64,000 bases of DNA from Escherichia phage vB_EcoS_MM-1 (PV577657); one strand, 5' to 3'; shown: positions 9,042-64,000, numbered from the stretch's first letter. Notes: generated by a model not told the origin, from the sequence alone. A program made the numbers and translations.

Positions 9042-9338
9042 ATGACCAAAGCTGAAATTATCGCACAATGTGAAAAATTTGGTGAGTTTTATCTTCATTA
9101 CGAGAAACTTCGTCAGAAAGGAACCACGTATCTTCAGGGTACGATGGAATTTGATCCAGCCCAAGATAAATATCTAGCTGAGCGTATTAAACGTGAACGT
9201 ATTCGTAAAGCGAAAGATGATGAGATCCTTGTCTTCTCTCGTACTAATGATAGCTTCCGTTTTATTCCTGTCGAAAAAGTCCGTCGTGTGACTAGCCTCC
9301 AATCAGAGTTAGATCGTGCTTCTCCAGTAGGCCGATAA
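9042..9338 (+). CDS. hypothetical protein
   Basis: ORF track; terminator immediately downstream. Confidence 0.55.
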   Translation: MTKAEIIAQCEKFGEFYLHYEKLRQKGTTYLQGTMEFDPAQDKYLAERIKRERIRKAKDDEILVFSRTNDSFRFIPVEKVRRVTSLQSELDRASPVGR

Positions 9339-9348
9339 GAAACCAATT

Positions 9349-9371
9349 AGCCCCTATATGGGGCTTTTTGT
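9349..9371 (+). terminator. rho-independent terminator
   Basis: AGCCCC-tata-GGGGCT followed by TTTTT. Confidence 0.7.
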
Positions 9372-9388
9372 GTATTTGGGATATGTAA

Positions 9389-9697
9389 ATGAGCGAACAG
9401 GTAAATCAAAACTATGAAGGACACGTTGATGACCAGTCCATCATACTTTGGGAGAAGGAGGGAGAACAAGTAAGATTAACAGTATCTGAATTTCGTGGGA
9501 ATCTATACATGGGTATTCGTTACTGGCTTCTTGATATTAATGATGAGTGGTTTCCAACGAAATCTGGCTTCTCTTTTCCTTACACCCTAGAAACAACATC
9601 ACAGCTTTTCTATGCGTTTACACAGATTCTTAGCGAATCTGAGGTTTTACATGAAGTACAGAAACGAGCTGAAGAACTCAAAGCCAAGAATGCCTAG
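9389..9697 (+). CDS. hypothetical protein
   Basis: ORF track. Confidence 0.55.
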   Translation: MSEQVNQNYEGHVDDQSIILWEKEGEQVRLTVSEFRGNLYMGIRYWLLDINDEWFPTKSGFSFPYTLETTSQLFYAFTQILSESEVLHEVQKRAEELKAKNA

Positions 9698-9713
9698 TTC
9701 TTGGCTTTTTCTT
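9683..9713 (+). terminator. rho-independent terminator overlapping the stop codon
   Basis: GCCAAGAA-tgcctag-TTCTTGGC then TTTTT. Confidence 0.65.
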
Positions 9714-9724
9714 TATAAATGTAC

Positions 9725-9753
9725 TTGCTTTCAACTCAGTTTTGTTATATAAT
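9725..9753 (+). promoter_or_regulatory. sigma70-type early promoter
   Basis: TTGCTT, 17 nt, TATAAT, then ATTTATATAAATTAATGAGAGGG. Confidence 0.6.
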
Positions 9754-9783
9754 ATTTATATAAATTAATGAGAGGGTTGCAAA

Positions 9784-10056
9784 GTGAAAAAGATAAGTAT
9801 AAGTACACTTAAACCTTTCCCGTACATCGGACAGCCTCTTATACTTATGTGGGAGGAGAAGATTAATGGGGAAAAGTATACTAAAACTAGAAGTGGGTAT
9901 AAGCTGACTTCACTTCATTACGAAAAAGAAGTATTAGTAGCTGAAATATACTCTCCGTTGTCAGATAGGCTAGTAAAAACTACATATTTGCATCGTTGCA
10001 AAAATTATACATGGCACGGATCCACTAGACAACCCTCATACTGTGAGGCAGAATAA
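9784..10056 (+). CDS. hypothetical protein (GTG start)
   Basis: ORF track. Confidence 0.45.
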   Translation: MKKISISTLKPFPYIGQPLILMWEEKINGEKYTKTRSGYKLTSLHYEKEVLVAEIYSPLSDRLVKTTYLHRCKNYTWHGSTRQPSYCEAE

Positions 10057-11028
10057 ATGACCAATGTAAAAGACTTTATTAAACGCTGTCAAGAAGCATA
10101 TTATCAAGGTATGTCTTTAATCTCTGACGAAGAATATGATCGTCTGATTAAAAGATTTCCGTTAGAAGAAGAGATCGGGCCTAAGGGCGATATTCCACAT
10201 CTGTATCGTATGTATTCTTTACAGAAAGTTTATTATAATCGTGGAGATAAACCCCCGTTTAACCCATTAGGTCAGGTAGAAACTGATAAGTTAGATGGTT
10301 GTGCAATTTCTCTGTTATATATTAATGGCGAATTTGTTCAAGCACTAACTCGTGGTAACGGTATTCTAGGGAATGATGTCACAAGCAACGTAAGATTGCT
10401 GAACATCCCTAAAAAGATTTCCCAAAAAGTACCTACTCAAATCACTGGTGAAGTTCTAATTACAAAAGAAGTAGAAAATAAACGTAACTTTGCCTCTGGT
10501 GCTATTAACCTCAAAGATAGTGATGATTTTGTACAACGTATCGGAGAAGGTGGTTTAATCTTCGTTGCATATGGTATCCAGTGTTCTGCTGAATCTGTAG
10601 GTATTACAGAAGCATATTTAAAAGATATGCTTTGGCTGGAGAATGAGAACTTCTTAACAGTTGTTAATGTGCGTTCTTTCTTTAAATGGATTCCGACGGA
10701 CGGTAAAGTTGTTCGTATTAATGATAACAACAAATTCTTCCGTGAAGGCTGGACTAATAAATTCCCTCGTGGAGCATTCGCTATTAAAGAGGATGAAGAA
10801 GGCGAGATTACAACTCTTACTAAAGTTGAATGGCAGGTAGGAGCTTCTGGTAAAGTAACTCCAGTTGGTTATTTCGAACCGGTAATTATTGATGATGCTA
10901 CAATTGTTAAAGCGACTCTTAATAACGTTGATTATATTAACTCTCTTGATCTAGAGATCGGTTGCCAGATTCGAGTGATTCGTGCTGGTGGTGTAATCCC
11001 GTGCATAGTAGAGCGAGTATATGATTAA
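10057..11028 (+). CDS. NAD-dependent DNA ligase, adenylation and OB-fold part (subunit A of a split ligase)
   Basis: KxDG adenylation motif (KLDGCA), TRGNGILGNDVT, OB-fold end IRAGGVIPCIVERV. Confidence 0.85.
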   Translation: MTNVKDFIKRCQEAYYQGMSLISDEEYDRLIKRFPLEEEIGPKGDIPHLYRMYSLQKVYYNRGDKPPFNPLGQVETDKLDGCAISLLYINGEFVQALTRGNGILGNDVTSNVRLLNIPKKISQKVPTQITGEVLITKEVENKRNFASGAINLKDSDDFVQRIGEGGLIFVAYGIQCSAESVGITEAYLKDMLWLENENFLTVVNVRSFFKWIPTDGKVVRINDNNKFFREGWTNKFPRGAFAIKEDEEGEITTLTKVEWQVGASGKVTPVGYFEPVIIDDATIVKATLNNVDYINSLDLEIGCQIRVIRAGGVIPCIVERVYD

Positions 11029-52860: not shown

Positions 52861-53015
52861 TGGAATGGGTAATTATTGGCATATTCGTCTTATTGATACT
52901 TCTCTTTGTAGGCTTACGTGTAATAGATACCTCTGTAACCCAAACAGAAATTAAATTAATGCAGTTGAGTAATAGATTATCTAGAATTGAAACTTTATTA
53001 GAGGAGCGTAAATAA
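52860..53015 (+). CDS. small single-pass membrane protein, paralog 1 (51 aa)
   Basis: ATG overlaps previous stop (TAATGG); MEWVIIGIFVLLILLF...RIETLLEERK. Confidence 0.5.
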   Translation: MEWVIIGIFVLLILLFVGLRVIDTSVTQTEIKLMQLSNRLSRIETLLEERK

Positions 53016-53122
53016 TGGAATGGGTAATTATTGCACTACTGGGGATTGTGATTATTGGGCAATGTATTTTAGATAATTATTTAGCTAGAATTGAAACCTT
53101 ACTATCGGAGAAACGTAAATGA
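53015..53122 (+). CDS. small single-pass membrane protein, paralog 2 (35 aa)
   Basis: ATG overlaps previous stop; MEWVIIALLGIVIIGQ...RIETLLSEKRK. Confidence 0.45.
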   Translation: MEWVIIALLGIVIIGQCILDNYLARIETLLSEKRK

Positions 53123-53313
53123 TGGAAGTGGGAATTACACTAATAGTAATATTAGTCTGGGTAATCCTCATTGTCTCTCGTATAGTGTATCTCCGCCTAA
53201 AAACTCTAGAAGCTCAGGTGAAACAACAACAAGTTATTCTAGAAAAGTTAGTACTACTGCAACGTTGTGATAGCACCCGTATTCTGCAAATTGAGAGGGA
53301 ATTAGATGTTTAG
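53119..53313 (+). CDS. small single-pass membrane protein, paralog 3 (64 aa)
   Basis: ATGA overlap with previous gene; MMEVGITLIVILVWVILIV then amphipathic helix. Confidence 0.5.
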   Translation: MMEVGITLIVILVWVILIVSRIVYLRLKTLEAQVKQQQVILEKLVLLQRCDSTRILQIERELDV

Positions 53314-53551
53314 TATTGTAATTGCTTTTATTATCGGGATACTTGCGGGAGTTTTCGGGACAACTGCGGCAATCAACAAGCATCGTAAATATATTGCGGA
53401 AGTATCGCGGGAGATTGCGGAAAGGGAGCGGAAGTTTGACGAGAAACGTGCGGAGTTTGAGCGGGAGTGGTCGGACGGATCTCGGGCGTCGCGGAAGAGA
53501 TTCCGTGAGTTCAGACCAGAACACAGGTTTGATGACCATTCTATGCGCTAA
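53306..53551 (+). CDS. small membrane protein with Arg/Glu-rich C-terminal tail (81 aa)
   Basis: 8-nt overlap with previous gene; N-terminal TM helix MFSIVIAFIIGILAGVFGTTAA. Confidence 0.5.
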   Translation: MFSIVIAFIIGILAGVFGTTAAINKHRKYIAEVSREIAERERKFDEKRAEFEREWSDGSRASRKRFREFRPEHRFDDHSMR

Positions 53552-53716
53552 TTTGACTTTTGCCAAATTTCATAAGATTACACATGGAGGTGTGTCCAGT
53601 GGGTCGGGGGAGAATACTTAGTCTGCTAACCGCCACCCCCCGTTACTATTATCATGGTAATTGTTTCACCCTGCAATTAAAATGGTTGCAGGGTGAAACA
53701 ATTTCAACTTTAATTA

Positions 53717-54493
53717 TTACGCAACTTTTAATTTCTCGATATATTGTTGCGGGCTGCAACTATATTCTGCGCGTTCTTCCTCGGTCATACCTTCCCAACA
53801 TAATTTCAAACGATCAGCTAGGAATTGATAATCATTATCATCATCGAGGGATTCATCAATAAAGGTTTCACCTATCAATGCCACGCCGATTGATAGAATA
53901 TCGTTAACGGCTTGCGCGTCCAGCGTTTTAAATCCGTATGATGCCGCCGCTGATAGTACACCCTTATGATCATCAATCATTGTAAAATCAGCGTTCGGAT
54001 ATAACTGTTTAAATAATTCAAAATAATAAGATTTATAAACTGCGTCTTTGCTGTGGTATATCTCGCTAACTTTATCAGCCTCAAAATATTTATGCAGTGT
54101 ATCGCGAGAAAACACGCGGATATTACTATCACCACGACCGCGCAAGCCTTGTTTGCGCAAATAATAATAGTCCGACTTGCTCATTAGTCGAGCGGTACAA
54201 ATAATGTTTAAAGTATTTGCGTCATTCATGCACTGGCGCATATATGTAACAAGGGGCAATAAAGTATCTTGCATTATTAAATCATGTTTGCAGGCTTCAT
54301 TTTTATACTTATTTAAATCTAAATTGCCCTCGCTATCAAAGCAAGGCGCTACACGATGGAAAGAATTAATGATAGTGCCGTCCAGATCCCAAATCATGAC
54401 GCGGGAAATATGCGGGAAATTACGGGTAATATTCATTTTAACTTGATTCATTTTGTTACGTTCTCCATTAAAGGGATTTAGTTTATCCAGCAT
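53717..54493 (-). CDS. dmp: HAD-family 5'-deoxyribonucleotidase-like protein (Dmp-like)
   Basis: HAD motif I MIWDLDGTIINS; first gene of the pre-early-like block. Confidence 0.65.
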   Translation of the reverse strand: MLDKLNPFNGERNKMNQVKMNITRNFPHISRVMIWDLDGTIINSFHRVAPCFDSEGNLDLNKYKNEACKHDLIMQDTLLPLVTYMRQCMNDANTLNIICTARLMSKSDYYYLRKQGLRGRGDSNIRVFSRDTLHKYFEADKVSEIYHSKDAVYKSYYFELFKQLYPNADFTMIDDHKGVLSAAASYGFKTLDAQAVNDILSIGVALIGETFIDESLDDDNDYQFLADRLKLCWEGMTEEERAEYSCSPQQYIEKLKVA

Positions 54494-54531
54494 TACCCGC
54501 TATTTATAAGCGGGTAATAATAAATCAACTA

Positions 54532-54924
54532 TTAAAGACCATAAGCCAACGCATCAGCGATAAAACTAACATCCTCACCGGATACGCTAGAACGAATCCC
54601 CGCGCAGGTGTATACCTTTGCGCTCGCTAGCTGATCATCAAGGCAAGCGGGGCAAGGCGCGACAACTGCAAAGGCTAGACCAGATTTTACCGCGTCAATA
54701 ATGATTGTTTCTTGTTTCATCGTGTCAACATAAACGCCTTTTGCTTTAATATGGCTGGTTAGTTTGCCTTGCGTATAGGCAAAGGTAGTAACCTGTAAAG
54801 CGTCATTGAAATCTAATAATTCATCAATAACGTGCCCCGCCTCGACGTGGTAACGTTCACCATTAGAATAAACCAGAACAATGGAAGACTGAGCGCGATC
54901 GAATGGAATATTTTGCTTTTTCAT
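54532..54924 (-). CDS. hypothetical pre-early protein
   Basis: ORF track; terminator hairpin downstream. Confidence 0.5.
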   Translation of the reverse strand: MKKQNIPFDRAQSSIVLVYSNGERYHVEAGHVIDELLDFNDALQVTTFAYTQGKLTSHIKAKGVYVDTMKQETIIIDAVKSGLAFAVVAPCPACLDDQLASAKVYTCAGIRSSVSGEDVSFIADALAYGL

Positions 54925-54963
54925 ACTTATAAAACTCCAATTAGTTTAATATAGGGATTTAAT

Positions 54964-55254
54964 TTATTTGATAATAATCTGCATCTGGTACGGCGTTAAT
55001 TCACCGTTTACGGGTAAATTATTATCGCTTAGCCACTCATAAAAAGCGCCATCATCATCAAAAGGAACAACATCATTATCACGATAATCGATGGAAATAA
55101 TGCCATCCGTATTAGTTTTGGCGGCTAGGATAGGCCCAAAGCTGTAAACTTTATCGGATTCCATTTCATCCGGTGAGATGAATGCTTTTTCGTCCAATGT
55201 TTTGGGTAATGTAACTTTCATTTTTTGACTCCTGTAATAGCGGCTATATTTCAA
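54964..55254 (-). CDS. hypothetical pre-early protein
   Basis: ORF track. Confidence 0.5.
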   Translation of the reverse strand: MKYSRYYRSQKMKVTLPKTLDEKAFISPDEMESDKVYSFGPILAAKTNTDGIISIDYRDNDVVPFDDDGAFYEWLSDNNLPVNGELTPYQMQIIIK

Positions 55255-55274
55255 GCCGCTAGGGGATAATTTAA

Positions 55275-56939
55275 TTACGCGAAAAATTTACCGTTTTTAA
55301 AGTCAATCAAAGTGCGCTGACCGTTTGCATAGGTAATTAAATGCGTTTGCGTCCAGCTTGACGCGCCAACGTTGTAACCCATATCCAGACTACCAGCTAC
55401 GCCAGCGGTATAAACGCCACCGTAAATGCTAGCGGTATGGGTGTGTCCCGTGTTTAGCTTGCCCAATTTCTTAAACTGTTTAGGATTGCCACGACTGCCG
55501 TTAATGCCGTTGTGACCGTGTACGCCGCACTCAATGCCTGCAATCTTGAAAGATTGATCAGTGGTTAGGAAAATGGCGTTAAACTCACAACCTGCAACCT
55601 TGCGCAGCGCATAATCTAGCACGTTAAAAGTATCATCATGATCACTGATCGCCGCGTAAATTGCAGCATTCAGGCGGTGATATAGTTCGGCGTTGGCTGG
55701 ATCGTCTTTGATGTTAGCATTACGATCATCTAACCAGCGGGATAGCGCCAAATCGTGATTAGATTCAACAATGATTGTTTGAGAGAAATCACGTTCCATT
55801 GATTCCAGCACGCGCCCCGTATCGATAAGATCATCCAGAACTTTATCACGTCCAGCGGCATACTGTTTTGCTAGGAATACACCGGATGCACGGTTATGAT
55901 GATTGCGCGATGTAAAATCATGCACGTCATGGATAAACTGATATTTTGGTTTAAGAATATCAAGCAAGCTATTTTCGCCAGCCCATGACGCAACGGCACA
56001 ATCATCATCTAATTTTTCCGCATGAATATCGCCATACTGCAAGCCTAAAACATGCCCCGATGTTTCATAGCATCCGGCAGGAGTAGCGCAAACATTCAGA
56101 TCATAAAACACCCCGCTTTCGTCCATTGTTTCAAGCTGGCGAACAAAAAATTCCCCGTCCTCGTCGAACTCAACAATCAGCGCGCCGAAGTTATGCAGAG
56201 CTTCCGCTTTTTGTCCTGCTTTCTGCTGAATATAGTTTTTAAGCGTTGCCGTTCCGGTTGAATACATACGGCGCACTACTTCACCTTTTAAAGCTGGCAC
56301 GCTTTCAGCGGTGATTTTAGCGTGACCAATTGCCAGCCCCTCAATATTGAGCGCCGTTGCAGTTTCTGCAAATCCTGAAAGCGGGTAATCTGCGGTTGGC
56401 AAAACATTAATTTCAGCCATGAAAGCAAAACGGCGGTTATTTAAAAACACGTTTTTGCTGCAAATATATTTATCAAATGCGGGATCGTATTTGATACCGT
56501 CTGCACCTTCTTCATTCTGGAAGCCATTTTTATTATAAATATACTTAGAAACAAGCAAATCAGCACCGATATATTCAGCGAATTTTTCCAGACTTGCTAA
56601 AAAGTTTTTATGCGGGAAAGTATTATTTTGAATCGACGTAATAATAAAGCGTTTACCCTGTTTTACTTCCCATTGCTCAACCGTACTAGAAACAATTCCC
56701 GCCGCTTCTGGGCGCTCATCGTTTTTAATGGCTTTTGCTACTTTTGCCGCTTTCGGTTTAGCTGGTTTATTTGCTTCCAGCCAGTCGCAGATAGCGGTTG
56801 AATGCTTCGTTGTATCGTAGACCGCTTTTGATATATCGTCGCAGACTTCCAGTTTAGTAGCGCGCAGACGTTTACCATAGAAATTAAAGTCAGCGGCCAT
56901 TTTCAGGATAACGGTTTGTTTTTCTGCGGAAATAATCAT
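55275..56939 (-). CDS. A1: A1-like pre-early protein, metallophosphatase fold
   Basis: 554 aa (T5 A1 is 556); phosphoesterase motifs GDIHAE and GHTHTASI. Confidence 0.7.
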   Translation of the reverse strand: MIISAEKQTVILKMAADFNFYGKRLRATKLEVCDDISKAVYDTTKHSTAICDWLEANKPAKPKAAKVAKAIKNDERPEAAGIVSSTVEQWEVKQGKRFIITSIQNNTFPHKNFLASLEKFAEYIGADLLVSKYIYNKNGFQNEEGADGIKYDPAFDKYICSKNVFLNNRRFAFMAEINVLPTADYPLSGFAETATALNIEGLAIGHAKITAESVPALKGEVVRRMYSTGTATLKNYIQQKAGQKAEALHNFGALIVEFDEDGEFFVRQLETMDESGVFYDLNVCATPAGCYETSGHVLGLQYGDIHAEKLDDDCAVASWAGENSLLDILKPKYQFIHDVHDFTSRNHHNRASGVFLAKQYAAGRDKVLDDLIDTGRVLESMERDFSQTIIVESNHDLALSRWLDDRNANIKDDPANAELYHRLNAAIYAAISDHDDTFNVLDYALRKVAGCEFNAIFLTTDQSFKIAGIECGVHGHNGINGSRGNPKQFKKLGKLNTGHTHTASIYGGVYTAGVAGSLDMGYNVGASSWTQTHLITYANGQRTLIDFKNGKFFA

Positions 56940-57029
56940 AGTAATAAAACTCCATTAAAGGGATTAGATTAATAACGGCAATATTGCCAAATATAACGCC
57001 TCAAATAATAGGCGTTATAATTTGCAACA

Positions 57030-57227
57030 TTAATTTAAAGGCACTAGGCTAGAACTAACACCACAAGCAACGGCAGCGATAAAACAAAGCAAGCCCAAAC
57101 GTTTTGCTAATTTAGATTTACGTTTAAAATAATATGAATCTAAATCATTTTGAAAATAAGCGAACAATAACGAGGGCGCCATAATAAACAAGCCTAGAAT
57201 TAATGATTCAGTAGGATAAAAGATCAT
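57030..57227 (-). CDS. small hydrophobic protein
   Basis: ORF track; two hydrophobic segments. Confidence 0.4.
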   Translation of the reverse strand: MIFYPTESLILGLFIMAPSLLFAYFQNDLDSYYFKRKSKLAKRLGLLCFIAAVACGVSSSLVPLN

Positions 57228-57284
57228 TTTAAAAACTCCTGATTTAAGGGAAGAAAATAACTATCGCTAAACAGTTATATTATT

Positions 57285-57315
57285 GCCCCCTCACTAAAAA
57301 AAGGGGGGCAAGGTA
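57285..57315 (-). terminator. hairpin terminator after the A2-like gene
   Basis: GCCCCCT-cactaaaaaa-AGGGGGGC. Confidence 0.55.
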
Positions 57316-57321
57316 TAACTA

Positions 57322-57729
57322 TTATTCGCCTGCGGCTTGTTTTACTTCCTCGGCAACGCCTAACAATTGCGCTACTGCGTCCAGCGTTTCAAGTTTTGCA
57401 CTTTCAAGGCTTGCCAGATCATCGGCATCTTTGATAATGCCGGAATCGATAGCGTGTTTTGCAATAACGCGTACATAATGAGCTTTGCGGATTGAACTAC
57501 CGCCGCCAACTTTGCGGGGCTTACCGCTTTTTTGATATGCTTTTGCGCTGGTCAATTTTGACCGAACGGATACGGGAGAAGCCGCGCCTACTGCTTTTGC
57601 AATCTCTTTCAGGCCGTCGCTATTTGCGAAATCTAAACCGTTTTCATTAATTAACTGTTGATACATGGAAACAGCTTTCTGAGTGTTTTCTTCATTCCAT
57701 GCGAATTTTGCGGTTTTAGCGTTAGTCAT
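57322..57729 (-). CDS. A2: A2-like pre-early DNA-binding protein
   Basis: 135 aa, basic centre (KSGKPRKVGGGSSIRKAH), adjacent to A1-like gene. Confidence 0.55.
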   Translation of the reverse strand: MTNAKTAKFAWNEENTQKAVSMYQQLINENGLDFANSDGLKEIAKAVGAASPVSVRSKLTSAKAYQKSGKPRKVGGGSSIRKAHYVRVIAKHAIDSGIIKDADDLASLESAKLETLDAVAQLLGVAEEVKQAAGE

Positions 57730-57825
57730 GATGTAACTCCTATTAGTTTAATTTAAGGGATTAGATTAACTTAATGTTAATCGTTATATCCCCCTGAAAT
57801 AAGGGGATATAAAGTTAACACTAAT

Positions 57826-58077
57826 TTACAATACAGCTTCCCATTTTTCGTTGCGTTGAACAACCTTTACAACATCGCCGGATTTAACGCGAACGCTAAA
57901 AACGGGCTTGCCGTTGTTACTACGTTCATTTTCAGCGTATACCGCGTCGATTGTATCGAACGGCATAAGCGCCGCACCTTTAATACGTTCGGCCTTTCCG
58001 GTTAATTCATCCGTTTTAGTAACGAAAGGAATGAAGACGAATTGACCAACTTTCGGCGCGGTAATAACGTTTTGCAT
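57826..58077 (-). CDS. hypothetical pre-early protein
   Basis: ORF track; hairpin TATATCCCC-N9-GGGGATATA downstream. Confidence 0.5.
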   Translation of the reverse strand: MQNVITAPKVGQFVFIPFVTKTDELTGKAERIKGAALMPFDTIDAVYAENERSNNGKPVFSVRVKSGDVVKVVQRNEKWEAVL

Positions 58078-58307
58078 AATATAAACTCCTAGTTATTTGG
58101 GGATTGTTCCGCATTACCTGCTAGAAAGTAACAGCAGGTAATAAGTAACAATCCGCTCGCCAATATAATCAATTTTAAAGAACTCCACGTAGGCCGCTAT
58201 ATCCCGTTAGGGGGCGGGATGCATTATGGTAAGCACCGACCGTCAAATTTTATCAAGTTATCGCTCTTATCGAACTGGGTACATCTTAAAACCTATCGGC
58301 TAGGTTG

Positions 58308-58511
58308 TCAAACAATTTTTTGCAATTTTTTATGATTTTCTTTTAGGTCAATCATAATATTTCGCCAGATCATTTCCAGACCTTGCTGGCGACCTTTCTT
58401 GTACTGCGTGAATCTATATCTTACTGATCTTTGAGCTACTGTCAACAAATTTTTTGTTTTGCTATCTAGTGCCTTAATAGGCTTGCCAGTGATCAAAAGC
58501 GTTTGTTTCAT
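58308..58511 (-). CDS. small basic protein
   Basis: RBS AAGGAA on the minus strand before ATG. Confidence 0.45.
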   Translation of the reverse strand: MKQTLLITGKPIKALDSKTKNLLTVAQRSVRYRFTQYKKGRQQGLEMIWRNIMIDLKENHKKLQKIV

Positions 58512-58956
58512 ATCGTCGATTCCTTATAATGAATAAGTTTACCGCCGATAGGCTTTAAGATGTACCCAATTTTTAAAGAGCGTGGCGGTAAACTTCCCGC
58601 CGTGTAGTTCGTCATTGCCGCCCTACGAGATAAATAATAGGGGATTCCCGAAAATGGCGCAACCTTATTTTTGTAAAGAAATGTAAAGGTAAAACTCACC
58701 GGACACCGTGCGGCGACGGCCTAAAATTAAAAGAAACGGGCGCGCGAATACCACAAAATAAAGCAAATAGGCAAGTAATTTTTTCATTTATATTTGCTTT
58801 GCCCTACTTGACAAAATCTAAAAAGCTCGTGGTAACGATAAACGGCTTATCCCCTTATGATGGGATGGCTAAAAACTTTATTGCGTTCTGGAGCGTTTTA
58901 GGCGCATTCTAGCCTTGTTGATAACTTATCCCCAAAAGCAAAAATGAAATTTTCCT

Positions 58957-58993
58957 AGTTATCCACTTGACTTTTATTTTCCAGTGGATAACT
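58957..58993. promoter_or_regulatory. inverted pair of DnaA-box-like sites
   Basis: AGTTATCCACT ... AGTGGATAACT flanking TGACTTTTATTTTCC. Confidence 0.5.
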
Positions 58994-59255
58994 ACTTATT
59001 TTATGAAATAAATTAATTGACTTTTATTTGTTAGTATGCATCGGAAAGATAGCAGACTAATAATTGCTAGAATGATAATCATGCTGGTGGATTGTAACGA
59101 CCTGAATTATTAGCAGACTATTAATCACGGAAAAATCTCATTAGCCAACTAACTATTTCATGATATATAATATACATATAAATTAATGAGAAATAATAAC
59201 TATAAGAAATCATCTAGCTAAGTGAGAACCACTATCATTTAAGTTATACACAAAG

Positions 59256-59264
59256 TTATCCACA
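59256..59264 (+). promoter_or_regulatory. consensus DnaA box
   Basis: TTATCCACA exact 9-mer. Confidence 0.5.
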
Positions 59265-59333
59265 GCACTTTTTGACTTGACACGATAGGCGGCGATATAA
59301 GGACTTTTACACAGACTTATCTACAGGTTATTC

Positions 59334-59353
59334 CACTGTATAAATATACAGGG
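59334..59353. promoter_or_regulatory. LexA (SOS) box-like palindrome
   Basis: cACTGTATAAATATACAGgg = CTGT-N8-ACAG with AT-rich core. Confidence 0.55.
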
Positions 59354-59618
59354 TAAAAAGGTAGTGTTAACAACTGCAATCAATTTTAAGCGGCTTAAAT
59401 CGCATTCTAACGAGCTAAACGCTGCGGGGTAATATTAAAGTAAAGCCTTAATGCGTCGCCCTGGTGGCTTCGCCGTGGTTTGCTCTTTATTGCACCGCTG
59501 CGCGGTTAGCATAAAAATAGGCGCTAGGCAAGGAAAATAAAAAGGTAAAATAATATTTGCCTATGCTAGAAATTTACCTTTATCATTCACTCACCGATTA
59601 ACGAGGGAGGCCGAACAA

Positions 59619-60398
59619 ATGAGGCTTTATAAACCTGATAATGCCACCGTTTTAAAAGGTGCATTGCGCAACCTGCTGGATGGTAGCAAGTCAACCAGCA
59701 TTAAACATTTTATTAACAAGATTGAAACTATTCATCAAAACTTTTTTGATGATTATGACGCTTATGATATGGATAGTTTTCTACCCTTATATAGACAAGG
59801 GGCAACGCTAGTTTTATATAATCGGGATTGCCATATCTTTACAGGCAGGGGAGCGGGGCCGGATACCGATTTTATTGTTGCGCAGGGTAATAATATTGTT
59901 GCGTATCATAGCAATTCAGGCCGTCAATCATTTAATATAAATAGTTTTGAGCTTATTGGACTTGATCTGATAAATGGACTTTCTAGCATTGAGGGATTTT
60001 TAGATGTTATCTGGAAGTATTTACCCGCTGGATGGCATAAGCCGGATAACGACGGATCTCAATATACCGGTATAATGGCTTTTGATGGCGACGGTAATTT
60101 TTTGTTACCACGGGAGCTATACCCATATATTTATGATGGGGATATAGAAAGCGCTGGTTTTTCTTTCTGGAAAGATGAAGATCAGATTATTGACAGCGTA
60201 GAAAACCATGCTGTAAATTCTAACACTCAAAGCGTTAACACTCAAACTACTGAAAACAAAGGAAAAAACACTATGACCAAGATTGCTAACATCGTTGCCG
60301 CTAATAAATCCGCCGTTGTAAATGCTGCAAAACTGGAAGCGGGTAAAATTGCACTGACTCAAATCACGAAAGTAGCGGCTAAAAAGCACCGTTCATGA
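59619..60398 (+). CDS. hypothetical protein
   Basis: Strong RBS GAGGGAGG; 259 aa. Confidence 0.6.
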   Translation: MRLYKPDNATVLKGALRNLLDGSKSTSIKHFINKIETIHQNFFDDYDAYDMDSFLPLYRQGATLVLYNRDCHIFTGRGAGPDTDFIVAQGNNIVAYHSNSGRQSFNINSFELIGLDLINGLSSIEGFLDVIWKYLPAGWHKPDNDGSQYTGIMAFDGDGNFLLPRELYPYIYDGDIESAGFSFWKDEDQIIDSVENHAVNSNTQSVNTQTTENKGKNTMTKIANIVAANKSAVVNAAKLEAGKIALTQITKVAAKKHRS

Positions 60399-60628
60399 TT
60401 AAAGGCTATATTGATACGCCGATTGGTCGAGTAGTGATTGCTAACCTGCTAAGTGTAGCGGTTGACCAGTACGCACCGACTAACCAGAAAGCGAAAGCGG
60501 TAGCAGGGGCGGCTATGGAAGCGGCAATGCTGGAAATGGTGCAAAGTTTTAACATCGCTGAAATGATTGATGAAATGGTGAAAGGTATTGATATTTCTAC
60601 TTTTACCACTAGCACCGAAATCGAGTAA
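60395..60628 (+). CDS. hypothetical protein
   Basis: ATGA overlap with previous gene; terminator hairpin AGTGGGGA-ttatt-TCCCCACT after stop. Confidence 0.5.
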   Translation: MIKGYIDTPIGRVVIANLLSVAVDQYAPTNQKAKAVAGAAMEAAMLEMVQSFNIAEMIDEMVKGIDISTFTTSTEIE

Positions 60629-60693
60629 TAATATTTAGTGGGGATTATTTCCCCACTTTACTACTCCCTTGTTAATTAATAGGAGGCTAACTA

Positions 60694-61188
60694 ATGGCTG
60701 AGGAAAAATACGGCTTCTCGCTAGGAGAAGTGAGCACGGCTAAACATGATATGATCATTTTAGTCGATTGTCATACTGGCTATTGCGGAGAAGGGAACAC
60801 CGAAGAATACTTTGTTCCTGCTGGTACGGATCTGGACGCTTTCGCTCATGAAATGGCTATTGATAATGCTTCTCGTTTTGGTAGCGATGGCTATGAAGAC
60901 GAAGAAACTGGCGAATGGTATGAAAATGAAAACGTATATGCAAGCCTTTATCATTATCAGCTAAGTAAATCCGGCACATATGTAAACGGCGGCGATCCTA
61001 TTAATTCCGTCATGAAATTAATTATTAAATATGGTGGCGTCGAGATAATTGATAACAAAGCGGTAATATACGCAAACCGATTAAAACAGCTTGTTTATAT
61101 TCCTGATAGTACCCGATGGGATGAATACGCTGTTTTGCATGACGAATTGAAACGATGTTTCAATATTGAATCCCTGCAAGTAGTCTAA
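60694..61188 (+). CDS. hypothetical acidic protein
   Basis: Strong RBS AGGAGG; 164 aa. Confidence 0.6.
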   Translation: MAEEKYGFSLGEVSTAKHDMIILVDCHTGYCGEGNTEEYFVPAGTDLDAFAHEMAIDNASRFGSDGYEDEETGEWYENENVYASLYHYQLSKSGTYVNGGDPINSVMKLIIKYGGVEIIDNKAVIYANRLKQLVYIPDSTRWDEYAVLHDELKRCFNIESLQVV

Positions 61189-61293
61189 TGTAAAGTTTTG
61201 TAAAGGTCGCCTTTTATGGTGGCCTTTTTTGTTATAATGCTTTTACACCAAAACGGTGGATTGAAAATTTTCCCAAAAATTTGGAGGCTTAAA

Positions 61294-61524
61294 ATGGTTG
61301 CTTATTCTTCTGCTAGTCATCTGTTTACCGCGCAAGGCTGGGTATCTAATCGTGCTGTCATCTATGAAATGGTGCAGGAGTTCGGCATTGCTAAAACTTA
61401 TAATACCATTCAGGAACTATATAACGCCGATAAAATCGATCAGCAAACGGCTGGCTTTTTACTGGATACCCTGAAAGCTGAACATTGCACTAAAAAACAA
61501 GCCGCTAAAATTGTTTTAATGTAA
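61294..61524 (+). CDS. hypothetical protein
   Basis: ATG 61294 with GGAGG RBS (track start 61216); terminator CGGGGCG-ttacttt-CGCCCCG downstream. Confidence 0.5.
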   Translation: MVAYSSASHLFTAQGWVSNRAVIYEMVQEFGIAKTYNTIQELYNADKIDQQTAGFLLDTLKAEHCTKKQAAKIVLM

Positions 61525-61573
61525 TTAATAACGGGGCGTTACTTTCGCCCCGATAACTAGGAGGCTATCACAA

Positions 61574-61723
61574 ATGGTTATTTTTCGATCTATTTTAGCG
61601 GGTATCTTGGGCGCTATTTTATCGTTATTTGCGATAGCTTTCGGCGTTCACGCTGTTATTATTGGCGCTGGCATTGCTGCGTTTTCTTATCTGCTGGGCT
61701 GCATGACTAGTAAAGGAGAATAA
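61574..61723 (+). CDS. small two-helix hydrophobic protein (49 aa)
   Basis: RBS AGGAGG; Gly/Ala-rich TM segments; below ORF-track length cutoff. Confidence 0.45.
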   Translation: MVIFRSILAGILGAILSLFAIAFGVHAVIIGAGIAAFSYLLGCMTSKGE

Positions 61724-61725
61724 AA

Positions 61726-61938
61726 ATGATCCGCAACGTTTCCCTTGCACGTTCGAAAGGCTTTAAGCTGGTGGATGTTAACACGTTCGAGTGGGAAGAT
61801 TGTAAAATCGAATATGTAGCACGTAACAAAAATGCCTTTCGTGTTACCGAGAAAAAATTTGATAAGCGCGGCAACGTGATAGCTGAAACAGTTAAACATT
61901 TTGCCACCTTTTACGCTGCTTTCCGTGGGGTATTATGA
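61726..61938 (+). CDS. hypothetical protein
   Basis: RBS AAAGGAGAA. Confidence 0.5.
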   Translation: MIRNVSLARSKGFKLVDVNTFEWEDCKIEYVARNKNAFRVTEKKFDKRGNVIAETVKHFATFYAAFRGVL

Positions 61939-62057
61939 TTCAGCAAATTAAAACGGCTTTTCGTTTTTGGGGCGTCCTGCCTTCAATTGGTTTTATTCTG
62001 ATAATTATTAGTCAGCTAATGATCATCGGCGGAACTATTTGGGAGCTATGCAAATGA
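61935..62057 (+). CDS. small hydrophobic protein (40 aa)
   Basis: ATGA overlaps at both ends. Confidence 0.35.
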   Translation: MIQQIKTAFRFWGVLPSIGFILIIISQLMIIGGTIWELCK

Positions 62058-62398
62058 TAATTTATGAAGGCAATCGCTTTGTTGCTAATTGCCGTCCGGC
62101 ATTATTAGCAAACTATTTAAACCAGCTTTCCCCAGCTTATAAGGGCGTTATTAATATTTATGAGGGAAAGGCGCATTATAAAATTAATGCGGTCGTTGCC
62201 CGTGAACTAGCATTTCAATTTTTGACCTTTGCATCTTGTGACGTTCAGGTTATGGGTGAGGCATTAATCGCGGAAAATGAAGAGGATTTTATTAATATTT
62301 TCCGTAAGGTATGCACTGAGCGCTTGATAATGAAAGGCGCGTATATTCAATCAACTGCGGAAAGTATTGAAACAGCATTTCGAAAGGTGGCGCAATGA
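62054..62398 (+). CDS. hypothetical protein
   Basis: ATG 62054 (track start TTG 62039); 114 aa. Confidence 0.5.
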   Translation: MIIYEGNRFVANCRPALLANYLNQLSPAYKGVINIYEGKAHYKINAVVARELAFQFLTFASCDVQVMGEALIAENEEDFINIFRKVCTERLIMKGAYIQSTAESIETAFRKVAQ

Positions 62399-62498
62399 GA
62401 TTATATATTTTCGTTGGTAATGTTAAGGCAGCTAATGATTCCGCTGGTGGCGACAACGTTCGCCACCATTGGCAAAAATATATTTACTAGGAGTTATT

Positions 62499-62606
62499 AT
62501 GTCTGGTTTAATGTTTACCTTATTAGTAGTTTATAGCATAATTACGGCAGGAATAGTAACTTATGTTACTAGTAAAATTTGGCCGGGAATATATGGTAAT
62601 TTTTAA
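62499..62606 (+). CDS. small hydrophobic protein (35 aa)
   Basis: RBS AGGAG; single TM helix. Confidence 0.35.
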   Translation: MSGLMFTLLVVYSIITAGIVTYVTSKIWPGIYGNF

Positions 62607-62621
62607 TAACGGAGCGTTATT

Positions 62622-62825
62622 ATGAGCAATAAAATTATTGTAACCAAAATCAGTACAATGGTTGATGTTTTTTACGTGCCAGATACGCCGGAGAATCGGC
62701 AAGCGGTCGAGCGGGGCGAATATGATAAAGTGATTTATGATCACGATGGTTATTATCAGTATTTGGTGGATTCCTACGGGGAGGAGGAGAAGATCACGCA
62801 TCGACTACCGGAGGAGGGTTTATGA
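62622..62825 (+). CDS. hypothetical acidic protein
   Basis: RBS ACGGAG; 67 aa. Confidence 0.5.
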   Translation: MSNKIIVTKISTMVDVFYVPDTPENRQAVERGEYDKVIYDHDGYYQYLVDSYGEEEKITHRLPEEGL

Positions 62826-62980
62826 AACGATGGTTTAATCACTGGTACAAGCGGTTTTTAGTACGCCGTCGCAAGTCTAGGCATCAAGATGAGTGGCGGG
62901 AGTGGGCAAAGCGTAACGGTTGCCCGCTACTATAATAATCACGGGGCGCAACTATCGGGAAGTGCCCCCAATTCTCAAAT

Positions 62981-63001
62981 GAGAATCATTCTCATTTGAC
63001 C
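62981..63001. repeat. perfect 21-bp palindrome
   Basis: AAATGAGAAT-C-ATTCTCATTT; partial copies recur at the ends of the 67-bp repeats. Confidence 0.8.
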
Positions 63002-63192
63002 GCGCCCGCGATGGTTAGCCTGCTAATGATTAGGGTGTTACGTGTCGCCTTGTGTGATCGTTAGCGAGCTAACTAATTTTCAAGCCTCCTCCAATTTTGC
63101 CCTTGTTTTAGTATCTCCACCAAAATTAAACGCGTTAGAATGCGATCTAGGACGTTTTAACGCTATATTAGAATTATTCACTGCGTAGGAAT

Positions 63193-63212
63193 ACTGTATA
63201 TTTATACAGTAG
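63193..63212. promoter_or_regulatory. LexA (SOS) box-like palindrome
   Basis: TACTGTATATTTATACAGTA. Confidence 0.6.
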
Positions 63213-63219
63213 GATAAGC

Positions 63220-63302
63220 TGTGGATAAGTCTGTTAATAACACCCCAAAATGGCTAGGATTCTGTCAAGTCAAATCGTGCTGTTAATAAGTCTGTGGATA
63301 AC
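63220..63302. promoter_or_regulatory. two consensus DnaA boxes within an inverted motif pair
   Basis: TGTGGATAA at 63220-63228 and 63294-63302, each linked to GTCTGTTAATAA. Confidence 0.5.
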
Positions 63303-63317
63303 TTAAATAATAGTGTT

Positions 63318-63488
63318 TCTCACTTCCGTTCTTAAATACGAATCACTATCATTTGCGTTCCACTTTCTAAATGAGAATCATTCTGCTTTTTAAAGGAGAA
63401 TCGTTTCACTTCCTGAATAATTCTCACTTCCATTCTTAAATGCGAATTATTATCATTCTCATTCCGCTTTTTAAATGAGAATCATTCT
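63318..63488. repeat. two about 67-bp direct repeats, each ending in the AAATGAGAATCATTCT half-palindrome
   Basis: Units at 63318-63384 and 63422-63488 are near-identical. Confidence 0.75.
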
Positions 63489-63511
63489 CATTATCATTCG
63501 CATTCAGGCGA

Positions 63512-63529
63512 GCAGGGCAATTGCCCTGC
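63512..63529. repeat. perfect 18-bp palindrome
   Basis: GCAGGGCAA-TTGCCCTGC. Confidence 0.7.
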
Positions 63530-63535
63530 GCTTTT

Positions 63536-63758
63536 GTGCAAATCCGACATTGCTCCACGGGTGTTACGTGCGGGCGTGTATGTGCGAATCCGACAATTTT
63601 TGGTAGTGTGCAAATCCGACCCGAAAAATTTTTATAGTGTGCAAATCCGACAATGAATTTTCCTAAAAACTCCAGCAATCACGAACTGCGTTCGAATCCT
63701 GTGGGGTATGTGCAAATCCGACACGGTTTTTCTAGGATTAAGATGTGCGAATCCGACA
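63536..63758 (+). repeat. array of six direct copies of GTGC(A/G)AATCCGAC(A), irregularly spaced, each followed by a T-rich tract
   Basis: Copies at 63536, 63582, 63608, 63638, 63710 and 63745. Confidence 0.8.
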
Positions 63759-64000
63759 AGATTTTTGTGACTTCGATTGGAGGGTGTGTGATTGTGTGAG
63801 TTTGGGGAGAAGTTGAGAGAGCGAGAAAAATTTGAGGGAACTGCGGGAGGGGCGCATGTTTGGTGCGGAGCACCTGATTTGCGGGGATTTTGGGGAAGAG
63901 TTGAGAAGATTTGGGTTAATTTGAGATTAGTGCAGAAAAAGTAAAATTTTATTAGCTAAATGGAGCAAAATAGCTTGACAAGTGAAAATTCTTGTGGCTC

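What the first reader, a model, noticed from the sequence alone, without database searches (positions are those of the whole stretch)
62976..63529. Repeat complex: 21-bp perfect palindrome, two 67-bp direct repeats, an 18-bp perfect palindrome and DnaA boxes
AAATGAGAAT-C-ATTCTCATTT (62981-63001) recurs as half-sites at the ends of two near-identical 67-bp units (63318-63384, 63422-63488), followed by GCAGGGCAATTGCCCTGC (63512-63529). Two exact TGTGGATAA boxes and a LexA-like box lie just upstream. Such dense nested symmetry is typical of origins, packaging/injection control sites or recombination sites.
Basis: seen in the sequence. Interest (0 to 1): 0.45.

Follow-up and report, generated by a model that had tools for sequence, protein, structure and literature searches.

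The report
Phage T5 injection-stop repeat region
The repeat complex is real, but it is the already described non-coding "injection stop signal" region at the inner end of the terminal repeat of a T5-like phage, here in the right-hand copy; how it works is still unproven.

Summary
The only error is that the 21-nt palindrome lies at 62977-62997, 4 nt left of the stated position.

The window is the right 64 kb of a T5-like phage (Tequintavirus, 99.9% identical to phage ECOP18). Its terminal repeat spans 53594-64000, and the window ends exactly at the repeat end.

The finding aligns with the phage T5 feature annotated "injection stop signal (iss)", described by Davison (2020) as "Repeat Region 3".
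- The DnaA boxes and the LexA-like box lie in IRD'-spacer-IRC'.
- The two 67-bp units are DRE1 and DRE2.
- The 18-bp palindrome overlaps the motif of the T5 major nick (7.9% and 99.6% of the genome).
- The DRD repeats follow on the right.

So this is already known. "Injection control" matches the standard annotation, "origin" is not supported, and "packaging" remains open.

My own additions are untested and I found them in no paper I could search:
- The repeated palindrome TGAGAAT-N-ATTCTCA resembles a Fur box.
- The LexA-like box matches the SOS consensus at 19 of 20 positions.
- The order Fur-like, LexA-like, DnaA boxes, Fur-like array is kept in T5-like phages of Escherichia, Salmonella, Klebsiella and Vibrio.

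This suggests host regulators bind here, which is testable.

The parts
53594..64000 (.). Terminal repeat (right-hand copy, 10,407 bp) that contains the finding. It carries the pre-early genes: dmp-like 53717-54493(-), A1 55275-56939(-), A2 57322-57729(-) and a T5.015-like gene 61726-61938(+).
   Evidence: The first 60 nt of phage MM-2 (start of its annotated LTR) match at 53594. The last window base equals the last base of the T5 repeat (…TGTGGCTC|TAAAAACT). Window 52969-53869 is 100% identical to MM-2 106900-107800 across the junction of unique DNA and RTR.
62943..62968 (+). G+C-rich hairpin just after the last small pre-early ORFs. It is terminator-like but has no clear U run. It occupies the same place relative to the last ORF as the T5 terminator annotated at 9275-9296, though the sequence differs.
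   Evidence: RNA fold of 62936-63005: -25.7 kcal/mol, z = -4.2. T5 annotation; alignment.
62975..62999 (.). Perfect 25-nt palindrome TCAAATGAGAAT-C-ATTCTCATTTGA. It is an isolated extra copy of the operator-like motif that recurs in DRE1 and DRE2. It lies in a ~115-nt segment that T5 itself lacks.
   Evidence: An intact or near-intact copy (at least 19 of 21 positions) is present in 20 of 30 distinct T5-like sequences, with the centre base flipping between C and G. It is absent from T5, Epseptimavirus and the Klebsiella phages. It scores 15.7 bits with the iron-box matrix.
63192..63211 (.). LexA-like (SOS-box-like) palindrome TACTGTATATTTATACAGTA, at the left edge of IRD'.
   Evidence: It matches the textbook consensus TACTG(TA)5CAGTA at 19 of 20 positions (consensus from my own knowledge). 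CTGT-N8-[A/C]CAG sits at a fixed offset in all 34 T5-like loci that have enough flank. It is also kept in Klebsiella and Vibrio T5-like phages. Its 16-nt core is identical in the inverted partner.
63194..63325 (+). IRD'-spacer-IRC' (Davison's name): a 132-nt arm of a long inverted repeat whose partner lies 3.8 kb upstream.
   Evidence: Inverted repeat 59220-59351 / 63194-63325, 77% complementary; aligned. Davison 2020 describes the 131-bp element and its partner.
63220..63240 (-). DnaA-box pair 1: TGTGGATAA (63220-63228, exact TTATCCACA on the - strand) and TGTTAATAA (63232-63240, one mismatch), 3 nt apart.
   Evidence: In 30 distinct relatives each of the four positions holds a consensus or one-mismatch box at a fixed offset. 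Described for T5-like phages.
63281..63301 (-). DnaA-box pair 2: TGTTAATAA (63281-63289) and TGTGGATAA (63293-63301), 3 nt apart and 40 nt from pair 1.
63317..63384 (+). DRE1, the first ~67-nt direct repeat. It is built from two ~35-nt sub-units, each carrying a quasi-palindrome of the AAATGAGAATCATTCTCATTT type.
   Evidence: families D1, D3. Davison's '66 bp DRE1 and DRE2'.
63421..63488 (+). DRE2, the second direct repeat, 87% identical to DRE1. It overlaps a perfect 19-nt palindrome AATGAGAATCATTCTCATT (63474-63492) and a period-35 tandem array. By alignment to T5, the estimated first-step shear point (T5 ~9618) falls near 63400, between DRE1 and DRE2.
   Evidence: Shear point, mapped using the nick position. 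Fur-like matrix hits at 63442, 63471 and 63477 score 13.4-18.6 bits.
63512..63529 (+). Perfect 18-nt palindrome, a G+C-rich hairpin followed by GCTTTTG. It is terminator-like and its right arm overlaps the nick motif.
   Evidence: It is the only terminator-like hit in 62400-64000. RNA fold: -22.6 kcal/mol, z = -4.1. The homologous site is annotated as a terminator in the HdH2 record; the Lindwurm record lists a terminator under the 1.1-kb match, not mapped precisely. In Epseptimavirus the stem is kept with a longer loop; in the Klebsiella phages the hairpin is lost.
63525..63532 (-). Motif of the T5 major single-strand interruption. The - strand reads A/GCGCAGG, which places the predicted nick between 63531 and 63532, 469 nt from the right genome end. 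That corresponds to the 99.6% nick, and to the 7.9% nick in the left copy.
   Evidence: The T5 record annotates the nick at 9748/9749 on the - strand; it is mapped to the window. The consensus R/GCGCRGG comes from PMC3517423. CCYGCGCY followed 10 nt later by the first DRD repeat is kept in all nine enterobacterial relatives checked. It is the best-conserved stretch, 0.99. Whether this phage is nicked there cannot be read from sequence.
63535..63757 (+). In the left-repeat context the series continues past the repeat end.
   Evidence: T5 and MM-2 carry further copies beyond the repeat end.
59220..59351 (-). IRC-spacer-IRD, the inverted partner of 63194-63325. It carries its own DnaA-type boxes (59244, 59256, 59305) and a second LexA-like core (CTGT-N8-ACAG at 59336).

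Best explanation
The finding is the right-terminal-repeat copy of the conserved non-coding 'injection stop signal' region of a T5-like phage (Tequintavirus), called Repeat Region 3 by Davison.

Shown here:
- It lies between the last pre-early ORF and the inner end of the 10.4-kb terminal repeat.
- It is collinear with the annotated T5 iss.
- It holds the same ordered elements as T5: IRD'-spacer-IRC' with two pairs of DnaA-type boxes, DRE1 and DRE2, a G+C hairpin overlapped by the major-nick motif, then the DRD repeats.

Inferred:
- It acts in cis as a dense array of sites for dimeric DNA-binding proteins.
- In the left copy this DNA sits at the cell envelope when first-step transfer pauses after about 8% of the genome. 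Proteins bound to the just-entered DNA would clamp it until the pre-early proteins A1 and A2 allow transfer to resume.
- DnaA was proposed for this role by Davison. From sequence I add LexA and Fur as candidates. The phage's own DNA-binding dimer A2 is also possible.
- The identical right copy, the one in this window, is the last DNA to enter the cell and, by inference, the first to be packaged. It carries the 99.6% nick site.
For: Identity:
- The region is 99.9% identical to phage ECOP18, and 452 phage records match, almost all Escherichia or Salmonella T5-like phages.
- It aligns with the T5 iss feature and with the MM-2 LTR.
- Repeat boundaries were fixed; A1, A2 and dmp lie upstream.

Anatomy matches the published description element by element.

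Non-coding:
- T5 annotates no CDS here.
- The 80-aa ORF over the repeats matches no PHROG family.
- Relatives differ by indels that are not multiples of three.
- No Rfam family matches.

Selection on the sites. Fraction of 29 distinct relatives identical to the window:
- nick motif plus first DRD repeat: 0.99
- LexA-like box: 0.96
- DnaA pairs: 0.92-0.93
- adjacent ORF tail: 0.45

Host-factor reading:
- The three motif types match consensus operators whose specificity is shared among gamma-proteobacteria (my own knowledge).
- The order Fur-like, LexA-like, DnaA boxes, Fur-like array is kept in phages of Escherichia, Salmonella, Klebsiella and Vibrio.
Against: - No experiment has shown that this sequence causes the pause. 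Davison states that iss was only hypothesised to be a DNA sequence and has never been dissected genetically.
- Binding of DnaA, LexA, Fur or A2 is untested.
- From my recollection of the literature, T5 ejects its whole genome in vitro. A cytoplasmic protein clamp would therefore have to resist capsid pressure.
- The DRE region varies in length (140-330 nt) among relatives, and the upstream palindrome is missing from T5 itself. Not every repeat is therefore essential.
- From my recollection of the literature, nick-deficient T5 mutants are viable, so the nick itself is dispensable.
- To my knowledge T5 grows on recA hosts, which argues against any obligatory LexA-cleavage step.
Confidence: 0.85

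Rival explanations
1. It is a packaging or terminus-processing signal. The array marks the place where terminase recognises the concatemer and cuts at the right repeat boundary. The array comprises the DRE motifs, the hairpin and nick site, and above all the adjacent DRD repeats. The pause in injection would then be a secondary effect or unrelated.
For: - The region lies 0.5-1 kb inside the exact right genome end.
- T5 injects its left end first. By the general last-in, first-out rule, the right end with this copy should be packaged first.
- The DRD repeats straddle the repeat boundary in T5 and MM-2, as small-terminase binding arrays often do (my own knowledge).
- A strand-specific nick motif 469 nt from the end is the best-conserved element.
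Against: - No terminase binding data exist.
- They have an inverted partner 3.8 kb further in, which a terminus signal does not obviously need.
- This explanation could hold alongside the injection-stop role rather than replace it.
Confidence: 0.25
2. It is a transcriptional boundary. The hairpins at 62943-62968 and 63512-63529 end rightward pre-early transcription. The operator-like motifs would then regulate weak promoters inside the region, for example a LexA- or Fur-repressed promoter.
For: - The 18-nt palindrome is the only terminator-like hit in the region. It folds strongly, and the homologous site is annotated as a terminator in HdH2.
- T5 has an annotated terminator in the place of the first hairpin.
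- Ten promoter-like matches were found against 4.2 expected, one of them overlapping the LexA-like box on the - strand.
Against: - All promoter-like hits are weak, 9 of 12 positions.
- No conserved ORF lies downstream of any of them.
- Termination explains two hairpins but not the DnaA pairs, the 132-nt inverted repeat or the DRE array.
- The hairpin at 63512 has only four U's after it and is lost in the Klebsiella relatives, while the nick motif stays.
Confidence: 0.2
3. It is a DnaA-dependent replication origin.
For: Four DnaA-type boxes lie in phased pairs, two of them exact, and more lie in the inverted partner. Davison notes the resemblance to oriC.
Against: - T5 origins were mapped near the genome centre, and the replication genes are outside the first-step DNA (Davison).
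- By eye, the sequence shows no AT-rich 13-mer unwinding element next to the boxes and only one GATC in 63100-63540.
- GC skew shows no switch that is specific to this site.
Confidence: 0.03

Closest known systems
Phage T5 injection stop signal (iss) region, or 'Repeat Region 3' of the left terminal repeat. Sources: GenBank AY543070 feature 9140-10149; Davison 2020 bioRxiv 10.1101/866236. Davison cites the 1987 sequencing paper and the 2005 genome paper, which I could not read.
   Same: - Same place in the repeat.
- Collinear and alignable sequence.
- Same IRD'-spacer-IRC' with paired DnaA-type boxes and an inverted partner upstream.
- Same two ~66-nt DRE repeats.
- Same hairpin with the GCGC nick motif.
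- Same DRD repeats.
   Different: - This phage has an extra ~115-nt segment with a perfect 25-nt palindrome that T5 lacks.
- It has two exact DnaA boxes in IRD'-spacer-IRC' where T5 has one.
- The copy seen here is the right-repeat copy.
Non-origin DnaA-box clusters of E. coli such as datA and DARS, and oriC itself (my own knowledge)
   Same: Clustered, phased 9-mer DnaA boxes that mix consensus and one-mismatch sites.
   Different: There is no unwinding element, no evidence of replication function or of DnaA titration, and DnaA binding here is untested.
Fur operators, for example the published iron box GATAATGAGAATCATTATT and the 7-1-7 consensus TGATAATNATTATCA (list in PMC10665472)
   Same: - The 13-mer AATGAGAATCATT is identical.
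- The palindrome matches the 7-1-7 consensus at 12 of 14 positions.
- Overlapping hits shifted by 6 nt, as in Fur arrays.
- Matrix scores of 13-19 bits, within the range of genuine boxes.
   Different: - Both half-sites carry a symmetric change, T to G and A to C, at position 4.
- The sites are not at a recognisable promoter.
- Binding is untested.
Stepwise genome entry of phage T7, where entry is paced by transcription and pauses (my own knowledge)
   Same: Genome entry proceeds in stages, and early genes are expressed before the rest of the DNA enters.
   Different: In T5 the first step occurs without protein synthesis: first-step DNA is isolated in chloramphenicol. Restart needs phage proteins A1 and A2, and the stop is ascribed to a DNA site, not to a polymerase.

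Membership tests
T5-type injection stop signal region (Repeat Region 3 of a Tequintavirus terminal repeat) | Non-coding stretch at the inner end of a ~10-kb direct terminal repeat, downstream of the pre-early genes (dmp, A1, A2) | tested here: met
   Repeat spans 53594-64000. dmp-like, A1 and A2 were identified. The last conserved ORFs end at 62825 and 62935. The ORF over the repeats matches no family.
T5-type injection stop signal region (Repeat Region 3 of a Tequintavirus terminal repeat) | Sequence homology and collinearity with the annotated T5 iss | tested here: met
   Alignment to AY543070 9099-10399 and to MM-2. T5 annotates iss at 9140-10149.
T5-type injection stop signal region (Repeat Region 3 of a Tequintavirus terminal repeat) | 131-132-nt IRD'-spacer-IRC' with DnaA-type boxes in pairs 3 nt apart, plus an inverted partner (IRC-spacer-IRD) upstream | tested here: met
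   definition.
T5-type injection stop signal region (Repeat Region 3 of a Tequintavirus terminal repeat) | Two ~66-nt DRE direct repeats followed by a series of DRD repeats | tested here: met
   DRE1 and DRE2 are 68 nt and 87% identical. Six TGTGCRAATCCGAC copies lie inside the repeat.
T5-type injection stop signal region (Repeat Region 3 of a Tequintavirus terminal repeat) | Major single-strand interruption at about 7.9% (and 99.6%) of the genome, with motif R/GCGCRGG | tested here: inconclusive
   The motif is present on the correct strand at the homologous position, 63525-63532. An actual nick in virion DNA cannot be read from sequence.
T5-type injection stop signal region (Repeat Region 3 of a Tequintavirus terminal repeat) | DNA transfer pauses here in vivo | not testable with these tools
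   This needs a shear (blender) experiment or a time-resolved entry experiment.
DnaA-dependent replication origin | DnaA-box cluster next to an AT-rich unwinding element, with origin activity | tested here: not met
   Boxes are present. By eye, the sequence shows no 13-mer-type AT-rich element and only one GATC nearby. Published mapping places T5 origins near the genome centre. Origin activity itself is not testable here.
LexA (SOS) operator | 20-nt palindrome of the type TACTG(TA)5CAGTA (CTGT-N8-ACAG) | tested here: met
   63192-63211 matches at 19 of 20 positions (consensus from my own knowledge). Variants in relatives keep CTGT-N8-[A/C]CAG.
LexA (SOS) operator | Overlaps a promoter and is bound by LexA | tested here: inconclusive
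   Only a weak promoter-like match (9 of 12) on the - strand overlaps the box. LexA binding is not testable here.
Fur operator (iron box) | Match to the 19-nt consensus GATAATGATAATCATTATC or to the 7-1-7 motif | tested here: inconclusive
   The sites match at 12 of 14 and at 13-16 of 19 positions. Matrix scores are 13.4-18.6 bits, against leave-one-out scores of 2.8-26 for the 11 published boxes. There are 5 hits of at least 10 bits in 551 nt, against a mean of 0.06 elsewhere. Both half-sites carry a symmetric non-consensus base. Fur binding is not testable here.
Intrinsic transcription terminator (63512-63529) | G+C-rich hairpin followed by a U run | tested here: inconclusive
   It passes the simple scan and folds at -22.6 kcal/mol. 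Only four U's follow, two bases after the stem. Termination in vivo is not testable here.

The most novel reading that the evidence does not exclude
The T5 injection stop region is a landing pad for three host global regulators, not for DnaA alone.

- A Fur-like box, a near-consensus LexA box, two pairs of DnaA boxes and an array of Fur-like boxes occur in the same order in Demerecviridae of Escherichia, Salmonella, Klebsiella and Vibrio.
- A perfect Fur box that does not vary among relatives also lies 233 nt from the left end of the repeat.

On this reading, host-protein occupancy of the two ends of the first-step DNA sets the pause in DNA transfer, its release, or both. Occupancy might change with iron status, with SOS induction, or when A1 destroys the host chromosome and frees these proteins.
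Probability: 0.2. Interest if true: 0.7.

Novelty: already known. Interest (0 to 1): 0.25.

Why it matters
As reported, the finding re-discovers a region that was sequenced in 1987 and compared across 25 T5-like phages in 2020. It adds no new kind of element.

The region still matters. How T5 stops after injecting 8% of its genome, and how it restarts, has been open for over 50 years. A 2026 paper still calls second-step transfer poorly understood.

The Fur-like and LexA-like readings found here, if they hold, name concrete host proteins and host mutants to test alongside Davison's DnaA proposal.

Tried and rejected
- **Rfam.** An E-value scan of 62000-64000 found no RNA family.
- **Coding potential.** The ORFs over the repeats are short. 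The longest (80 aa, 63436-63678, - strand) matches no PHROG family. Some records annotate 'hypothetical proteins' here, but these differ from record to record. I rejected coding.
- **E. coli genomes.** BLAST of the DRE2 motif (63462-63506) gave only weak hits (E about 8) in an intergenic spot of lambdoid prophages, between an esterase gene and the lysis genes. None lay at iron-regulated promoters, so the search was uninformative.
- **IHF.** No copy of the consensus WATCAR-N4-TTR lies right of 62900.
- **A2 as the binder of the palindromes.** A2 has no Pfam match above cut-off and no relative of known structure. Its fold and likely site type remain unknown. I ran no further search on it.
- **Is the hairpin part of the nick signal?** The four other CCYGCGCY sites on the same strand of the window have no adjacent hairpin. 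I rejected the idea.
- **Literature.**
  - Davison 2015 (PMC4743489) is not held.
  - No held paper links LexA or Fur boxes with T5.
  - The library lacks the 1987 and 2005 primary papers, so prior mention of these boxes cannot be excluded.

Full report
**1. What is in the sequence**

- The palindrome AAATGAGAATCATTCTCATTT is at 62977-62997, 4 nt left of the stated position. It extends to a perfect 25-nt palindrome at 62975-62999.
- The two direct repeats are 63317-63384 and 63421-63488. They are 68 nt long, 87% identical and 104 nt apart.
- The half-site AAATGAGAAT recurs at 63369 and 63473. In the second unit it forms a perfect 19-nt palindrome at 63474-63492.
- GCAGGGCAATTGCCCTGC is at 63512-63529.
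- TGTGGATAA occurs at 63220 and 63293. Each has a one-mismatch partner TGTTAATAA 3 nt away (63232, 63281).
- TACTGTATATTTATACAGTA is at 63192-63211.

This is not chance. All three perfect palindromes with arms of at least 9 nt in the 64-kb window lie in these 555 nt. First-order Markov simulations give 0.77 for the whole window.

**2. Where the window comes from**

- The 1.1 kb around the finding is 99.9% identical to Escherichia phage ECOP18. It matches 452 phage records, almost all T5-like phages of Escherichia and Salmonella.
- In records with annotated ends the match lies at about 9.3-10.3 kb, inside the left terminal repeat.
- The first 60 nt of phage MM-2 match the window at 53594. The last window base is the last base of the T5 terminal repeat (…TGTGGCTC|TAAAAACT).
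- Window 52969-53869 is 100% identical to the MM-2 junction between unique right-arm DNA and the right repeat.
- The window is therefore the right 64 kb of a linear T5-like genome. Positions 53594-64000 are its right terminal repeat, and the finding lies 0.5-1 kb from the physical right end.
- The repeat carries the pre-early genes: dmp-like, A1 (554 aa, 'DNA transfer protein'), A2 (135 aa, 'DNA binding protein') and a T5.015-like nickase.

**3. What it is**

The T5 record AY543070 annotates the homologous stretch (9140-10149) as 'injection stop signal (iss)'. It also marks a 'major DNA single-chain interruption' at 9748/9749 on the minus strand. The window aligns with T5 throughout this feature, except for a segment of about 115 nt that T5 lacks.

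Davison (bioRxiv 10.1101/866236) calls the region 'Repeat Region 3'. He lists a 131-bp IRD'-spacer-IRC' with paired DnaA boxes, two 66-bp DRE repeats, several palindromes and nine DRD repeats. He found these conserved in 25 T5-like phages.

- The DnaA boxes and the LexA-like palindrome are in IRD'-spacer-IRC' (63194-63325). Its inverted partner lies at 59220-59351.
- The '67-bp units' are DRE1 and DRE2.
- The 18-nt palindrome sits 2 nt from the position of the T5 nick. The minus strand reads A/GCGCAGG, which fits the published consensus R/GCGCRGG (PMC3517423). This places the predicted nick at 63531|63532.
- In this right-hand copy that nick is 469 nt from the genome end. It corresponds to the 99.6% interruption of T5 (my arithmetic).
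- Six DRD repeats (TGTGCRAATCCGAC) follow at 63535-63757.
- The estimated first-step shear point in T5 (about 9618) maps near 63400, between DRE1 and DRE2.

**4. Non-coding and conserved**

Evidence that the region is non-coding and not a known RNA:

- T5 annotates no gene here.
- The longest ORF over the repeats matches no PHROG family.
- No Rfam family matches.
- Relatives differ by indels that are not multiples of three.

I collected 30 distinct versions of the region from GenBank and IMG/VR. The 29 with a complete 1,090-nt stretch were aligned. The table gives the fraction of those 29 sequences identical to the window.

| Element | Fraction identical |
|---|---|
| Nick motif plus first DRD repeat | 0.99 |
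| LexA-like box | 0.96 |
| 18-nt palindrome | 0.93 |
| DnaA pairs | 0.92-0.93 |
| DRE units | 0.63-0.84 |
| Upstream 25-nt palindrome | 0.73 |
| Tail of the adjacent ORF | 0.45 |

The sample was selected by an exact 15-mer at 63312-63326, so that stretch is biased.

Other points on variation:

- The 132-nt inverted-repeat arm has no indels in any of the 30. The DRE region varies from 140 to 330 nt.
- An intact or near-intact copy of the upstream palindrome is present in 20 of 30. It is absent from T5, Epseptimavirus and the Klebsiella phages.
- The hairpin stem at 63512 is kept in Epseptimavirus with a longer loop. It is lost in the Klebsiella phages, while the nick motif stays.

**5. How it probably works**

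Established from the papers I could read:

- T5 transfers the left 8% of its genome and then pauses.
- A1 and A2 are needed for the rest of the DNA to enter.
- The pause point maps to this region.
- The idea that a DNA sequence causes the stop is a hypothesis that has never been tested genetically.

Davison proposes that membrane-associated DnaA binds the eight boxes and holds the DNA.

My reading is that the region is a dense array of operators for dimeric proteins. Three observations go beyond the papers I could search.

*The LexA-like box.*
- It matches the textbook SOS consensus at 19 of 20 positions (consensus from my own knowledge).
- It keeps CTGT-N8-[A/C]CAG in every relative, including Klebsiella and Vibrio phages.
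- Its 16-nt core is identical in the inverted partner.

*The recurrent palindrome TGAGAAT-N-ATTCTCA.*
- It matches the Fur 7-1-7 consensus TGATAATNATTATCA at 12 of 14 positions.
- It shares a 13-mer with the published iron box GATAATGAGAATCATTATT.
- I built a matrix from the 11 Gram-negative iron boxes listed in PMC10665472. With it, the six best sites in the whole window all lie in the terminal repeat.
- Four of these lie in the finding (13.4-18.6 bits). Leave-one-out scores of the genuine boxes range from 2.8 to 26 bits.
- In relatives the two variable positions toggle towards exact Fur half-sites. One phage has a perfect box there.

*The order of the elements.* Fur-like box, LexA-like box, DnaA boxes, then a Fur-like array occur in that order in T5, Epseptimavirus, Klebsiella phages and a Vibrio phage. 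These hosts share the specificities of the three regulators (my own knowledge). That fits host factors better than a fast-evolving phage protein.

None of this shows binding. A2, a known DNA-binding dimer, remains a candidate for the palindromes. Its sequence gave no clue.

**6. Rivals**

- **Packaging signal.** This is plausible for the right copy. T5 injects its left end first, so the right end is probably packaged first. The DRD repeats straddle the repeat boundary. This role could coexist with the stop function.
- **Transcription boundary.** This explains the two hairpins but not the rest. The promoter-like hits are weak.
- **Replication origin.** Published mapping places T5 origins near the genome centre. 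By eye, the sequence shows no unwinding element and almost no GATC.

**7. Verdict**

It is nevertheless the known T5 injection stop region, and near-identical sequences are already in GenBank. The novelty class is 'already known' and the interest is low. The Fur-like and LexA-like readings are leads for a question that has been open for 50 years, not findings.

Noticed in passing
window 53826-53840: A perfect Fur 7-1-7 box, TGATAATCATTATCA, lies 233 nt from the left end of the terminal repeat, inside the dmp-like gene (- strand). It gives the best iron-box matrix score in the whole window (20.8 bits). The 15-mer does not vary in 12 distinct T5-like sequences down to 72% identity, while flanking third-codon positions do vary.
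   Followed up: partly
window 63535-63757: Six direct copies of TGTGCRAATCCGAC (Davison's DRD repeats) lie just right of the finding. In T5 and MM-2 the series continues past the repeat end. MM-2 lacks about 70 nt here (window ~63621-63689), apparently lost between repeat copies, so copy number varies. They may be a terminase or other protein-binding array.
   Followed up: partly
window 59220-59351 and 59334-59353: The inverted partner of the DnaA-box element lies 3.8 kb upstream. It has its own DnaA-type boxes (59244, 59256, 59305) and a second LexA-like core identical over 16 nt. The centre of the spacer has diverged between the two arms, while TGTCAAGTCAAA and ACTTAAATRATAGTGKTTCTCACTT are kept.
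   Followed up: partly
window 53641-53721: A 36-nt inverted repeat (78% complementary, 9-nt gap) lies 48 nt inside the left end of the terminal repeat, just downstream of the dmp-like gene on the - strand. It may be a terminator for the leftward pre-early operon or an end-proximal signal.
   Followed up: no
window 63033-63056 and 63559-63582: A 24-nt direct repeat GGGTGTTACGTG… (79% identical) brackets the core of the region. One copy lies left of the DnaA-box element and one lies right of the nick site (family D10).
   Followed up: no
window 58262-58300 and 58544-58582: A 39-nt inverted repeat (85% complementary, 243 nt apart) lies in the non-coding stretch between the A2-side genes and the rightward pre-early genes. 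It may belong to Davison's Repeat Region 1.
   Followed up: no
loci L004 (pork29) and L008 (saus176N): In these two records the annotated left terminal repeat ends about 15 nt after the last DRD copy, equivalent to window ~63793. In T5 and MM-2 it ends at the position equivalent to 64000. Either the repeat boundaries differ among T5-like phages or they were determined differently.
   Followed up: no
window 397, 23662, 34631, 49535: Four more matches to the T5 nick motif (CCYGCGCY on the + strand, so the nick would be on the - strand) lie in the unique part of the window. Only one match lies on the opposite strand (25831). This fits the strand-specific nicks of T5. None has an adjacent hairpin.
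   Followed up: partly
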